A DNA stretch of 26,662 bases from Hyphomicrobium sp. (GCA_031415475.1 JANORU010000218.1:1-26662); one strand, 5' to 3'; shown: positions 15,879 to 18,262, numbered from the stretch's first letter. Program-made: numbers and translations. The notes: generated from the sequence alone by a model not told the origin.

Positions 15879-16511
15879 TCAGACCAGCCCCGCCTGTTTG
15901 AGATAATTATAGGCCTGGATAATCTCGCGCAACCGTTCCTCGGAGCGCGTATCGCCGCCGTTGGCGTCGGGATGATGGCGCTTCACCAGATCCTTAAAGC
16001 GGGCCTTGATCTCGTCTTTGCCAGCTCCTGGCTCCAATTCCAGCGTCTGCATGGCCTTTTTCTCGAGCGGCCGGAACTGGCGGCGAGACTCGACCGGCTG
16101 GGACCGGGCCTGCTTGGCGCGCCACGCAAAATAGGCCGCACTGTCATTGCCAGCGGCACTGCCCGCATCCTCGCCGCCTTCTTTCTTATGGCGTGTGCCA
16201 TGGGCCCAGGAATTAGCACCGACCTTCCAGGTCGGGCGGTGACCTGTGGCGGCATCCTTGACGAAATCGGCGACCTGGCCGTCGTTCATGCCATCGAAGT
16301 AGTTGTAGGATGCGTTGTATTCGCGCACGTGGTCGGTGCAGAACATAAAGAACTCGCCGTCGTGACCACGGCCCTTGGGCGCGCGGTGGCCAGCCGGCTT
16401 GTCGCAACCCTGCCATTGGCACATGGGTTGCCGCTTCTTCTTCTCGTCCTCCGCACGCTTGCGATTAGTGCCAACGCGGATGGAGTCGAAAAATTTTGAT
16501 TCGAGTTTCAT
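15879..16511 (-). CDS. J-domain (DnaJ-like) protein with N-terminal Cys/His motif and C-terminal J domain
   Basis: LVKRHHPDANGGD (HPD motif) near the C-terminus; N-terminal CQWQGC...FCTDH. ATG 16511 (MKLESKFFDSIRV) is preferred over 16724, which would overlap bolA. Confidence 0.9.
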   Translation of the reverse strand: MKLESKFFDSIRVGTNRKRAEDEKKKRQPMCQWQGCDKPAGHRAPKGRGHDGEFFMFCTDHVREYNASYNYFDGMNDGQVADFVKDAATGHRPTWKVGANSWAHGTRHKKEGGEDAGSAAGNDSAAYFAWRAKQARSQPVESRRQFRPLEKKAMQTLELEPGAGKDEIKARFKDLVKRHHPDANGGDTRSEERLREIIQAYNYLKQAGLV

Positions 16512-16628
16512 GGGGCATCGACTATGATGAAATGCGGCGCCCGGTGCAAGCGGCGAAGCGTAGCGTTCGGTTCGTGGTTGCGTTACACTTAAGATAGTTT
16601 TGCCAATTTGCCGGGAGACGCTCACACC

Positions 16629-16904
16629 ATGGCCGCCGAGAGCCGGATGCGCGAAAAATTGATGGTCGCGCTCGAACCCATTCGACTCGACGTCGTCAAC
16701 GAGAGCGAGATGCATGCCGGACACAGATCATCGCCCGGTACGGGCGAGAGCCATTTCCGCGTTCTGATTGTTTCGGAAAAATTTCGCGGCGTTGCCCGAG
16801 TTGCCCGCCACCGGATGGTCAACGATATTCTTGCCGACGAGCTGTCTGGCCGCATCCATGCACTGTCGCTATCGACCTATGCGCCGGGTGAGCCGATCGC
16901 TTGA
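16629..16904 (+). CDS. bolA: BolA family protein
   Basis: LDVVNESEMHAGH, ESHFRVLIVSEKFRG, RHRMVNDIL and IHALSL are BolA signatures. Confidence 0.93.
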   Translation: MAAESRMREKLMVALEPIRLDVVNESEMHAGHRSSPGTGESHFRVLIVSEKFRGVARVARHRMVNDILADELSGRIHALSLSTYAPGEPIA

Positions 16905-16924: not shown

Positions 16925-16981
16925 GGGGCGATTGATGCCCCGATTGGTGATGGAGGCGGGCCGGCTGCGACACCGGCCCGC
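16925..16981. terminator. Two GC-rich hairpins between convergent bolA and the small secreted-protein gene; possible transcript-end structures
   Basis: GGGGC-gattgat-GCCCC (16925-16941) and GCGGGCCGG-N8-CCGGCCCGC (16956-16981). There is no strong U-tract. Confidence 0.4.
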
Positions 16982-16992
16982 TCGACTTCAAA

Positions 16993-17289
16993 TCAGTACC
17001 ATCGCCGCCGGCAGACGCGCTGCCAGTCGCAGTGCTTGCGGCCCCAGTCATCGCGCCAGCACACCCGGTCCCAGTAGCAGTGACGCGGACGGAAGTGATG
17101 CCGGTGGTGGAAGTTCCGATGCCGCCAATGGCGCCGATGCCGGACTTCCTCAACCAAACCATCGGCACGCGACGATGTCTCGAGCGCATGACCGATTGCT
17201 GAACTCTGCGGAGCTGCAGTTGCGGGTCCGAGCCCTGCAAAAACCAGCATGCCAAGTCCAGCCACACCAGCGAAAAGAGTTCTATTCAT
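16993..17289 (-). CDS. Small secreted protein (98 aa) with signal peptide and Arg/His/Trp/Cys-rich C-terminus
   Basis: ATG 17289 has GGGAGA RBS upstream. MNRTLFAGVAGLGMLVFAGLGPATA is a Sec-type signal (ATA cleavage motif). The C-terminus is HRRHWRHRNFHHRHHFRPRHCYWDRVCWRDDWGRKHCDWQRVCRRRWY. The ORF-track extension to 17586 overlaps the XRE gene and looks non-coding. Confidence 0.8.
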   Translation of the reverse strand: MNRTLFAGVAGLGMLVFAGLGPATAAPQSSAIGHALETSSRADGLVEEVRHRRHWRHRNFHHRHHFRPRHCYWDRVCWRDDWGRKHCDWQRVCRRRWY

Positions 17290-17435
17290 TCCATAGTTCT
17301 CCCAATTGCAAATGCCTGTCGGGCGAAGTGCGCGCGAACGCACAAACGTTGACCCAACAGAACTCCCGGCATGGACATCAGCATCCTCCATGCTGCATGA
17401 ACGCGGGATGAACTGATGACGCGTTGAAGTCTGGC

Positions 17436-17506: not shown

Positions 17507-18262
17507 ATGTCGCAATCTTGTCTATCGGACGAAGACGCCCACACGGTCGCCGGGCGCGTTCGCGAAGAACTGGCGCGGCGGCGCATCTCGCGTCAGAAAC
17601 TTGCCGACACGGCCAAGATCAGCATCTCAACGCTCGAAAAAGTTTTGTCTGGCCGCCGCCCGTTCACTCTTGCAACGCTGCTCAGAATAGAAGATGCGCT
17701 TGGCGTTTCGCTGCAACCGAAATCGCTTGCGAAAAAATCCGATCGCGCCAGTGCCAGCGTCGCGGCGGATGAACTTGGCAATTACGCGCGGGCCTCCGTT
17801 GCCTGGCTCGAAGGCAGTTATCACACGCTGATCCCGTCGTTCGGCGAGCGCGCGGCAATTTCGTCCTACCGCACGGATATCGTCTGGGATGACAGCCAGA
17901 ACTGCCTGACGTTCCGGGAATCACAGCGGGTCGATTCCGCATTCACCCAATTCGGCAGTGTTTCCATGCCGAACCAGACGGGCCACGTCTATCTCGTCAC
18001 CAACCGGCATGGACAGCAGCGGCTTGCCATTCTCGCCCGGCCAAACAGTAGCGGCGTCATGCATGGCATCCTGGCCACCCTACAGTCGGGCCGTGGCGCG
18101 CACCTGACGCCGGTCGCCGCGCCGATCGTGCTGAGCCCGCTGGCCAGCGTGCCGTCGCCAGCCTATGGCCGCATCCTTCACGGTCGGGCCGAATATGGCC
18201 GATACCGCGCGCTGTTGAAGAAAACACTCGACGAAGGCTTCGCCACCTTTGTCAATTTGTGA
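17507..18262 (+). CDS. XRE/Cro-type helix-turn-helix transcriptional regulator with uncharacterised beta-rich C-terminal domain
   Basis: VREELARRRISRQKLADTAKISISTLEKVLSGRRPFTLATLLRIEDALGV is an HTH_3-type pattern; it is followed by a ~170-aa C-terminal region I cannot assign. Confidence 0.85.
   Translation: MSQSCLSDEDAHTVAGRVREELARRRISRQKLADTAKISISTLEKVLSGRRPFTLATLLRIEDALGVSLQPKSLAKKSDRASASVAADELGNYARASVAWLEGSYHTLIPSFGERAAISSYRTDIVWDDSQNCLTFRESQRVDSAFTQFGSVSMPNQTGHVYLVTNRHGQQRLAILARPNSSGVMHGILATLQSGRGAHLTPVAAPIVLSPLASVPSPAYGRILHGRAEYGRYRALLKKTLDEGFATFVNL

What the first reader, a model, noticed from the sequence alone, without database searches (positions are those of the whole stretch)
16993..17289. 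Secreted precursor ending in a cationic Arg/Trp beta-hairpin with two symmetric disulfides (protegrin/tachyplesin-like topology)
Seen: a signal peptide, a ~25-aa spacer ending LVEEVR, then a 48-aa tail with 14 Arg, 1 Lys, 9 His, 6 Trp and 4 Asp. The four Cys are at tail positions 21, 27, 37 and 43. Both 21+43 and 27+37 sum to 64, so they are exactly symmetric about the DDWGR turn. The tail is an internal duplication (HCYWDRVCWR / HCDWQRVCRR, period 16), and a hairpin register would place W23 opposite R41 and W39 opposite R25. Known: C1-C4/C2-C3 two-disulfide cationic hairpins are the scaffold of animal antimicrobial peptides such as tachyplesin and protegrin. Inference: a processed bacterial hairpin peptide acting as an antimicrobial, membrane-active or signalling peptide, preceded by a His-rich segment that could bind metal. 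I cannot name a family for it.
Basis: partly seen in the sequence, partly recalled or inferred. Interest (0 to 1): 0.72.

Follow-up and report, generated by a model that had tools for sequence, protein, structure and literature searches.

The report
Unnamed secreted protein with disulfide-stapled hairpin
This is a real, conserved but unnamed small exported protein of Hyphomicrobium whose last 25 residues are predicted to fold into a two-disulfide beta-hairpin; it looks like animal hairpin antimicrobial peptides, but nothing here shows it acts as one, and an envelope-binding role fits its setting better.

Summary
The minus-strand ORF 16993-17289 encodes 98 aa: a Sec signal peptide, a spacer ending LVEEVR, an Arg/His/Trp-rich linker, and a tail with Cys at 71/77/87/93.

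It is a real gene:
- Close orthologues differ almost only at third codon positions.
- All orthologues keep a GAGGAGA-type ribosome-binding site.
- About 30 homologues at 30-60% identity keep C-x5-C-x9-C-x5-C invariant.

Natural variants support a nested disulfide ladder: 2-Cys forms keep only the inner pair, 6-Cys forms add a further outer pair, and strand indels are symmetric.

No Pfam, NCBIfam, PDB or literature match was found. The module is confined to one alphaproteobacterial order. The gene sits next to bolA in several genera, but only 13 of 21 species of the genus carry it.

The antimicrobial reading is untested and poorly supported: no export or immunity genes, a hairpin net charge of only +2, and a chromosomal housekeeping context. 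His-richness is not conserved, which weakens the metal-binding idea. Expression was not shown.

Best guess: a periplasmic, envelope-binding small protein. The scan had noted this same stretch once before as a "two-gene islet"; the pairing with the XRE regulator is not obligate.

The parts
16993..17289 (-). Gene for the 98-aa exported small protein (stop codon 16993-16995)
   Evidence: Translation. Third-codon-position bias between close orthologues: differences by codon position [0,1,10], [0,0,7], [3,1,10]. Homologues.
17297..17303 (-). Ribosome-binding site GGGAGAA, 7 nt before the ATG
   Evidence: A GAGGAGA or GGGAGA block lies 6-8 nt before the start in all 13 aligned orthologue upstream regions.
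17215..17289 (-). Signal peptide, residues 1-25 (MNR, hydrophobic core, A-T-A then AP)
   Evidence: Read from the sequence. A23 and A25 are invariant in alignment A1. No SignalP was available, so the cleavage site is inferred.
17140..17214 (-). Variable spacer, residues 26-50, ending in the conserved LVEEVR motif
   Evidence: The V-E-x-V-x-H/Y-R block is conserved in A1 and A3. It is also present in Cys-less and BA14K-bearing relatives. AF2 pLDDT is about 50.
17083..17139 (-). Arg/His/aromatic-rich linker, residues 51-69
   Evidence: Composition. Arg is constant across the family; His is not.
17008..17082 (-). Predicted beta-hairpin, residues 70-94, with Cys 71, 77, 87, 93 and the turn D80-D81-W82-G83-R84
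   Evidence: AF2 strands 70-79 and 85-94, block pLDDT 95-97. Invariant C-x5-C-x9-C-x5-C. The one length change in the family falls in the loop (x8 in P0032 and P0033).
16996..17007 (-). Basic/aromatic C-terminal tail RRWY
   Evidence: 17 of 25 family members end in W or Y.
16957..16980 (.). GC-rich stem-loop between the convergent bolA and the small gene; a likely two-way terminator
   Evidence: 9-bp stem; the 66-nt fold gives -28.9 kcal/mol, z = -2.6. There is no U-tract, so its function is inferred.
17398..17413 (+). TGAAC-N6-TGAAC repeat in the divergent intergenic region; a candidate operator
   Evidence: Single match in the window, 0.08 expected. The TGAAC/GTTCA block is conserved about 100 nt upstream of the small gene in the orthologous loci. 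What binds it is unknown.
17507..18262 (+). Divergent XRE-family HTH regulator gene; a frequent but not obligate neighbour
   Evidence: HTH_3 at residues 19-70. It is syntenic in most Hyphomicrobium loci. It is present without the small gene in G005 and G009. It is absent where the small gene is present in G036 and the P0014 loci.

Best explanation
The gene encodes a small Sec-exported protein of about 73 aa after signal-peptidase I cleavage.

Its C-terminal 25 residues fold in the oxidising periplasm into a beta-hairpin. Two ladder disulfides, C71-C93 and C77-C87, staple it. The disulfide face carries two Trp-Arg cross-strand pairs, and the turn is a conserved D-x-W-G. Upstream lies a disordered, strongly basic Arg/His/aromatic linker and a conserved VEEVRHRR motif.

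The most likely role is a non-essential periplasmic or envelope-associated protein. The cationic linker and structured hairpin would bind an anionic or glycan envelope component such as LPS, peptidoglycan, phospholipid or exopolysaccharide. A released antimicrobial peptide is less likely.

Shown: the gene is real, the family is conserved, and the Cys pattern is invariant. Predicted: the hairpin. Inferred: disulfide connectivity, periplasmic location, the binding target and the physiological role.
For: Real coding gene: third-position bias and a conserved RBS.

Family: 25 representatives among 1.84 billion proteins, with invariant Cys spacing.

Hairpin: AF2 pLDDT 95-97 for strands 70-79 and 85-94.

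Ladder connectivity:
- 2-Cys relatives keep only the inner C-x9-C.
- 6-Cys relatives add a third, outer pair of Cys around the core (C-x6-C before it, C-x5-C after it).
- This genome's own paralogue has x6/x6 inner strands where others have x5/x5.
- That paralogue is modelled as one long hairpin, 74-81 against 105-111.

Disulfide machinery is present: 2 DsbB and 4 DsbA-like genes.

Envelope setting:
- Relatives of the module carry a Gly-zipper, membrane-like helix.
- The own-genome paralogue lies beside a gene that reads like an outer-membrane beta-barrel protein (read from the sequence, no family search run).
- The N-terminal module is shared with a BA14K-domain protein. BA14K is a secreted Brucella protein under envelope and general stress regulons (PMC12354254; bioRxiv 10.1101/2023.04.15.536747).

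Context: the position beside bolA, the dnaJ-like gene and cobS/cobT is chromosomal and vertically inherited across genera. No transporter, immunity or modification genes are nearby.
Against: - No experiment or expression data. No RNA run was listed for the gene. In one metatranscriptome the neighbours have contigs but the gene has depth 0-0.6. This is weak evidence, because contigs cannot show absence.
- The binding target is pure inference.
- Only 13 of 21 species of the genus carry the gene, so it is dispensable. That fits many roles.
- The link to BA14K rests on a shared low-complexity N-terminal region, not on the hairpin.
- The disulfide pairing was not read from model coordinates.
Confidence: 0.5

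Rival explanations
1. It is the precursor of an exported antimicrobial or membrane-active peptide. The Arg/Trp hairpin is cut off after LVEEVR or nearby, leaves the cell, and kills or inhibits competitors, as tachyplesin, protegrin or arenicin-type hairpins do.
For: - Predicted two-disulfide antiparallel hairpin with Trp/Arg pairs.
- Mature protein net charge about +9 plus 10 His.
- It evolves faster (about 40% identity) than its neighbours (62-92%).
- Presence within the genus is patchy, 13 of 21 species.
Against: - A Sec signal only reaches the periplasm.
- No export, immunity or processing genes are at this locus or at orthologous loci.
- The hairpin proper has 4 acidic residues and a net charge of +2, and acidic positions recur in both strands across the family.
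- The gene keeps a fixed housekeeping position across genera. It shows no mobile or island context.
- The LVEEVR motif is conserved, as expected of a functional part and not of a discarded spacer.
Confidence: 0.15
2. It is a periplasmic metal-binding or metal-buffering protein. The His-rich linker, possibly with the Cys as ligands, binds Ni, Zn, Cu or Co.
For: - 8 His among the 20 residues before C1 (9 in the 48-aa tail) in this protein, and similar numbers in its closest relatives.
- H-C dipeptides at C1 and C3.
- Neighbouring genes include cobS/cobT and a CNNM/CorC-type metal-transport protein.
- A language-model lead points to a 'His-rich protein BRANT' cluster, score 0.81, below the tool's reliability line.
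Against: - His content in the linker ranges from 0 to 9 of 20 across the family, while Arg is always 3-8.
- Alternating Arg would repel cations.
- The four Cys sit in a geometry that fits disulfides. It is not a CxxC-type metal knuckle, and the periplasm is oxidising.
- The cobST and CNNM neighbours are convergent or separate housekeeping genes, not an operon with this gene.
Confidence: 0.12
3. It is a secreted signalling peptide sensed by the divergently encoded XRE-family regulator, like an RRNPP-type pheromone and receptor cassette.
For: - Divergent small-secreted-peptide and XRE-HTH arrangement, conserved in most Hyphomicrobium loci.
- Conserved TGAAC repeat block in the shared intergenic region.
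- Faint NCBIfam similarity of the HTH part to AimR or HigA-type proteins, far below cut-off.
Against: - The pair is not obligate. G005 and G009 keep bolA and the regulator with only 174-285 bp between them and no peptide gene. G036 and the P0014 loci have the peptide gene without the regulator.
- No TPR or other peptide-binding domain was detected in the regulator.
- A disulfide-locked 25-aa hairpin with a highly basic linker is an unlikely re-import signal.
- No Opp-type importer is adjacent.
Confidence: 0.05
4. It is not a functional product: a spurious or decaying ORF in a GC-rich genome.
For: No RNA evidence. The gene is absent from 8 of 21 congeners.
Against: - Third-position substitution bias.
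- Conserved RBS and start.
- Invariant Cys over about 30 homologues in several genera.
- A confident structure prediction.
Confidence: 0.02

Closest known systems
Animal two-disulfide beta-hairpin antimicrobial peptides (tachyplesin/polyphemusin, protegrin, gomesin, arenicin-3)
   Same: - Antiparallel hairpin with a C1-C4 / C2-C3 ladder, here predicted and inferred.
- Even Cys spacing within each strand, so both Cys lie on one face.
- Arg and aromatic residues around the disulfides.
- Made as a signal-peptide precursor.
(The animal peptides are described from general knowledge.)
   Different: - No sequence homology: the PDB profile search gave E > 2 and Foldseek gave nothing specific.
- Longer strands, 10 residues, with x5 spacing and a 9-residue inter-Cys loop.
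- The hairpin contains four acidic residues and has a net charge of only +2.
- It is the C-terminal module of a roughly 73-aa bacterial periplasmic protein. It is not known to be released.
- No activity data.
BA14K family (Pfam PF07886), small secreted proteins of Brucella and other Rhizobiales
   Same: - Same order of bacteria and same overall plan: signal peptide, low-complexity basic/aromatic region, short C-terminal Cys-bracketed domain.
- One BA14K-bearing protein (P0013) matches this protein's N-terminal part, including VREDVRHRRHYR.
- BA14K is secreted and stress-regulated (PMC12354254; bioRxiv 10.1101/2023.04.15.536747).
   Different: - The BA14K HMM does not match this protein.
- BA14K has two Cys about 25 residues apart around an RYRSYD motif. 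It lacks the C-x5-C-x9-C-x5-C hairpin.
- BA14K's molecular function is itself unknown.
Unannotated sibling modules in the same order: the 2-Cys 'RRCWINRWGERVCRF' proteins, the 6-Cys Gly-zipper proteins, and 'CYWRRNCWYDSFGRRFC' proteins
   Same: They share the core C-[WF]-x-[DN]-x-[WY]-G-x-R-x-C loop at the extreme C-terminus of small exported Arg/Tyr/His/Gly-rich proteins.
   Different: - The number of Cys pairs differs: 1, 2 or 3.
- The export signal differs: some are Tat-like.
- Some have a membrane-like Gly-zipper helix.
- None has a Pfam or NCBIfam model.
- Homology rests on a short motif scoring 20-29 bits per genome.

Membership tests
Two-disulfide beta-hairpin antimicrobial peptides (tachyplesin/protegrin class) | Antiparallel beta-hairpin fold | tested here: met
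   AF2 with a 22-sequence alignment gives strands 70-79 and 85-94 with pLDDT 95-97. This is a prediction, not a structure.
Two-disulfide beta-hairpin antimicrobial peptides (tachyplesin/protegrin class) | C1-C4 and C2-C3 ladder disulfides | tested here: inconclusive
   The register (residue numbers summing to 164) puts C71 opposite C93 and C77 opposite C87. The nested 2-, 4- and 6-Cys variants and the symmetric indels agree. Dsb genes are present. No coordinates or chemistry were examined.
Two-disulfide beta-hairpin antimicrobial peptides (tachyplesin/protegrin class) | Short (about 17-25 aa), strongly cationic, amphipathic mature peptide | tested here: not met
   The hairpin at 70-94 has 6 K/R against 4 D/E. 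The predicted mature protein is 73 aa. Release of a short peptide is not shown.
Two-disulfide beta-hairpin antimicrobial peptides (tachyplesin/protegrin class) | Antimicrobial or membrane-permeabilising activity | not testable with these tools
   Needs synthetic or recombinant oxidised peptide and MIC and leakage assays.
Two-disulfide beta-hairpin antimicrobial peptides (tachyplesin/protegrin class) | Sequence homology to a known member | tested here: not met
   The profile search against all PDB chain sequences gave a best E of 2.3, on the signal peptide only. Pfam and NCBIfam gave nothing.
BA14K (PF07886) | Match to the BA14K domain model | tested here: not met
   No hit at E <= 10 for this protein. 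The model does hit relative P0013 at 7.9e-11.
Bacteriocin or microcin locus | Adjacent dedicated export, immunity or maturation genes | tested here: not met
   The neighbours are bolA, a J-domain protein, cobS, cobT, an XRE regulator, a CNNM/CorC protein and aroB/aroK. The same holds at distant orthologous loci.
RRNPP-type peptide and receptor cassette | Obligate pairing of the peptide gene with an HTH-TPR receptor gene | tested here: not met
   Each gene occurs without the other. Only an HTH domain was detected in the regulator.
His-rich periplasmic metal-binding proteins | Conserved His-rich metal-binding segment | tested here: not met
   His in the 20 residues before C1 ranges from 0 to 9 across 22 members.
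Pfam PF28279 'BRANT' His-rich protein (lead from the Atlas) | Match to the family model | not testable with these tools
   The lead has a feature score of only 0.81. The local Pfam scans returned no such family for this protein or its relatives, and whether that copy holds the model is unknown. No paper was found.

The most novel reading that the evidence does not exclude
Bacteria of one alphaproteobacterial order have independently evolved a gene-encoded, disulfide-laddered Arg/Trp beta-hairpin of the tachyplesin/protegrin type. They deploy it in several scaffolds (2, 4 or 6 Cys; soluble or membrane-tethered) as an envelope-active effector. It might bind LPS or outer-membrane assembly machinery, of the producer or of competitors. 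If so, it would be the first bacterial counterpart of the animal hairpin host-defence peptides.
Probability: 0.15. Interest if true: 0.8.

Novelty: new variant of a known kind. Interest (0 to 1): 0.5.

Why it matters
Disulfide-stapled cationic beta-hairpins are a classic scaffold of animal innate immunity and a template for antibiotics that target the outer membrane. To my knowledge, and in the literature searched here, no gene-encoded bacterial counterpart is described.

This work defines a conserved, unannotated family with a confident fold prediction and a simple signature: C-x-hydrophobic-x-R-x-C-W-R-D/N-R-W-G-x-R-x-C-x-hydrophobic-x-R-x-C. The family is restricted to one order that includes many methylotrophs, rhizobia and pathogens. 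It also has sibling modules with 2 and 6 Cys.

The product is small enough to synthesise, so its structure, disulfide map, binding target and any antimicrobial activity are directly testable.

If it turns out to be an ordinary envelope protein, it still gives a name and a model to many 'hypothetical' small proteins. It also adds context for the equally obscure BA14K family.

Tried and rejected
- Pfam, NCBIfam and PDB sequence searches of the protein, its profile and its sibling variants found no family.
- The first word-indexed homology search found nothing. The exhaustive search and six-frame genome searches were needed.
- Foldseek against the PDB returned only generic hairpins at E > 1. It is uninformative for a 25-residue element.
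- The ESM Atlas gave only unnamed clusters and two weak named leads, BA14K and BRANT at 0.81. The hairpin alone gave nothing.
- Literature searches found no description of such a family.
- The search for related loci on the full alignment failed for lack of a conserved block. A closer subset worked.
- Expression: the metatranscriptome contigs did not cover the gene, and no RNA run was listed. This is inconclusive, not negative.
- An EcfG-type general-stress promoter (GGAAC-N16-17-CGTT), suggested by ba14K regulation, was sought upstream. It was not found at the correct spacing.
- The idea that the gene is a core gene of the genus was rejected: 13 of 21 species carry it.
- The idea that it forms an obligate two-gene unit with the XRE regulator was rejected.
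- No complex prediction was run, because no specific protein partner is claimed.

Full report
**What is there**

The minus-strand ORF 16993-17289 encodes a 98-residue protein.
- a 25-residue signal-like N-terminus (MNR, hydrophobic core, A-T-A);
- a 25-residue spacer ending LVEEVR;
- a 48-residue tail with 14 Arg, 1 Lys, 9 His, 6 Trp and 4 Asp;
- Cys at tail positions 21/27/37/43, which are protein positions 71/77/87/93;
- an internal repeat, HCYWDRVCWR / HCDWQRVCRR, matching at 7 of 10 positions.

The longest possible ORF (197 aa from 17586) is not the gene. A GGGAGAA ribosome-binding site lies 7 nt before the ATG at 17289. All 13 aligned orthologues have a GAGGAGA-type site in the same place and start with MKR, MNR or MTR. 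A GC-rich stem-loop at 16957-16980 separates the gene from the convergent bolA.

**Is it a real gene?**

Yes.
- Closely related orthologue pairs differ almost only at third codon positions over the C-terminal 37 codons. Differences by codon position are [0,1,10], [0,0,7], [0,1,8], [3,1,10] and [0,0,3].
- An exhaustive HMMER search of 1.84 billion representative proteins found 25 relatives at E <= 0.001.
- Six-frame searches of related genomes found more.
- Source labels, where present, read 'hypothetical protein' from Hyphomicrobium metagenome-assembled genomes.
- The window's own assembly is a 3.0-Mb, 644-contig genome, 91% complete. Near-identical DNA occurs in freshwater-sediment metagenomes.

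**The conserved signature**

In alignments of 22-25 members at 27-75% identity to this protein, the four Cys and their spacing C-x5-C-x9-C-x5-C are invariant. Gly83 is nearly invariant and the residue before it is W, Y or H.

In an antiparallel register this places a hydrophobic or aromatic residue opposite a basic one twice on the Cys face:
- C1+4 is R or K in 22 of 25 members.
- Its partner C3+2 is W, V, M, I or L in 25 of 25.

The hairpin is the best conserved part, at 36-76% identity to this protein. The rest of the mature chain is at 22-54%. The only length change between the Cys in the 4-Cys family is one residue in the loop, x8 in two members. That is where a hairpin tolerates an indel.

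**Fold**

AlphaFold2 with the 22-sequence alignment predicts two strands, 70-79 and 85-94. Block pLDDT is 95-97 there and 49-58 elsewhere. The two strands are symmetric about W82. C71 therefore faces C93, C77 faces C87, W73 faces R91 and R75 faces W89.

I could not read the model coordinates, so the disulfides themselves are inferred. Three independent observations support a nested ladder over C1-C2/C3-C4 pairing:
1. A sibling group in another family of the order ends in RRCWINRWGERVCRF. The members read in full (for example L068) have only these two Cys, so the inner C-x9-C must close on itself.
2. Another sibling group has six invariant Cys. An extra outer pair surrounds the same core.
3. 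This genome's own 6-Cys paralogue (contig C80) has x6/x6 inner strands where its relatives have x5/x5. That is a matched indel on both strands. AlphaFold2 models it as one long hairpin, 74-81 against 105-111, at pLDDT 74-81.

The genome encodes two DsbB and four DsbA-like proteins, so the machinery for periplasmic disulfide formation is present.

**Known families**

None matches.
- Pfam and NCBIfam give nothing for this protein, its relatives or the sibling modules.
- A profile search of all PDB sequences gives only signal-peptide noise.
- Foldseek returns generic hairpins.
- Three literature searches found no description.

The N-terminal part (signal peptide, VEEVRHRR motif, Arg/His/aromatic stretch) is shared with other small exported proteins of the same bacteria that have different C-termini:
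- one with a bona fide BA14K domain (P0013);
- several Cys-less ones that end in alternating hydrophobic motifs such as LHLHF or GIGW.

BA14K is a secreted Brucella protein. It is among the strongest sigma-EcfG targets and sits in the CenR/EssRS envelope regulon (PMC12354254; bioRxiv 10.1101/2023.04.15.536747). Its molecular function is unknown.

**Distribution and context**

*Order and class.* The 35-position hairpin profile matches 41 of 401 sampled genomes of the order at E <= 0.01. These matches include the sibling variants. In a class-wide sample of 401 genomes, apart from the window's own genome it matches only 2, weakly. The module is therefore essentially confined to this order.

*Genus.* Within the genus, 13 of 21 species, counting this one, carry the 4-Cys gene, one copy each.

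*Position.* Where present, the gene sits in one place. It is convergent with bolA and next to a J-domain gene, cobS and cobT. The same holds for distant members at about 33-36% identity from other lineages. One member lies elsewhere, near parC and recO. This pattern indicates an old, vertically inherited, dispensable gene that is repeatedly lost.

*Rate.* It evolves faster than its neighbours: about 40% identity against 62-92%.

*The XRE regulator.* The divergent XRE-family regulator (17507-18262) is a frequent neighbour. The shared intergenic region carries a conserved TGAAC-N6-TGAAC(-N5-GTTCA) block. The pairing is not obligate. Two congeners keep bolA and the regulator only 174-285 bp apart with no small gene. 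Other lineages have the small gene without the regulator. These data weaken that reading.

**Function**

Nothing here measures function, so this section is inference.

*Against a released antimicrobial peptide.*
- A Sec signal delivers a protein only to the periplasm.
- No exporter, immunity or maturation gene is nearby at any orthologous locus.
- The hairpin proper has four acidic residues and a net charge of only +2. Acidic positions recur across the family.
- The LVEEVR motif is conserved, unlike a disposable spacer.

*Against a primary metal-binding role.* His in the linker ranges from 0 to 9 of 20 across members, while Arg is always 3-8.

*For an envelope role.*
- Sibling proteins with the same core loop carry a Gly-zipper, membrane-like helix.
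- This genome's own paralogue lies next to a gene that reads like an outer-membrane beta-barrel protein and next to another Arg/His/Tyr-rich exported protein.
- The shared N-terminal module links it to BA14K-type envelope and stress proteins.
- A Trp/Arg/Asp-rich rigid loop attached to a polycationic tail is well suited to binding anionic glycans or lipids.

I therefore favour a periplasmic, envelope-binding small protein at about 0.5. The rivals are an exported antimicrobial (0.15), a metal binder (0.12) and a signalling peptide (0.05).

*Expression.* It was not shown. One metatranscriptome has contigs over bolA and the J-domain gene but depth 0-0.6 over 17051-17332. No RNA run was listed for the gene alone. 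Contig data cannot prove absence.

**Verdict**

The antimicrobial, signalling and metal interpretations remain untested, and the context does not favour them.

This is an unannotated family that places a known kind of fold, the disulfide-laddered cationic beta-hairpin, in a new setting: the C-terminal module of small bacterial exported proteins. I rate it a new variant of a known kind, of moderate interest, and easy to test by peptide synthesis, mass spectrometry and a deletion mutant.

Noticed in passing
G000 contig C80, locus L084:1269-1604 (-) and L084:1801-2196 (-), with L084:410-1051 (-): This genome has a paralogue of the hairpin module. It has six invariant Cys and sits behind a Gly-zipper helix. 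It lies next to a 131-aa exported His/Tyr/Arg-rich protein and a gene that reads like an outer-membrane beta-barrel protein. AF2 models the Cys region as one long hairpin at pLDDT 74-81.
   Followed up: partly
Loci L048-L051, L063, L067-L069 (a genus of another family of the order, 12 of 12 genomes sampled): Small proteins with a Tat-like signal (MDRRSFF) and Gly/Tyr/Arg/Pro-rich repeats. They end in RRCWINRWGERVCRF, which keeps only the inner Cys pair of the hairpin core. No Pfam or NCBIfam family matches.
   Followed up: partly
Loci L053, L056, L059, L064, L065: Another C-terminal variant, C-x6-C-YWRRNC-WYDSFGRRF-C, behind Cys/Pro/Ala/Val-rich repeats. It occurs in 7 of the sampled genomes of one family (6 of one genus), five read here. 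It is unannotated.
   Followed up: no
L012, L017, L020; G000 contig C424 (L085:578-1096 -); P0012, P0021, P0023, P0026: Cys-less relatives that share the signal peptide, the VEEVRHRR motif and the Arg/His/Tyr-rich region. They end in alternating hydrophobic motifs with a terminal aromatic residue (LHLHF, GIGW, RFGW, FSFRY). These resemble the C-terminal signature of outer-membrane proteins.
   Followed up: no
window 17398-17413 (+) and the orthologous intergenic regions: A conserved TGAAC-N6-TGAAC(-N5-GTTCA) block lies between the small gene and the divergent XRE regulator. It may be that regulator's operator. No EcfG-type promoter with the correct spacing was found.
   Followed up: partly
window 17507-18262 (+): The XRE-family regulator has about 170 C-terminal residues with no Pfam or NCBIfam match. 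It is 62-68% identical across the genus, and it stays at the bolA junction even where the small gene is missing.
   Followed up: partly
window 16957-16980: A 9-bp GC-rich stem-loop without a U-tract lies between the convergent bolA and the small gene. The 66-nt fold has z = -2.6.
   Followed up: partly
window 15879-16724 (-): A 281-aa protein with only a C-terminal J-domain (residues 226-277). It is conserved next to bolA and cobS in all loci examined. As called from its GTG start, it overlaps the bolA ORF by about 117 bp on the opposite strand, so one of the two starts is probably further downstream.
   Followed up: no
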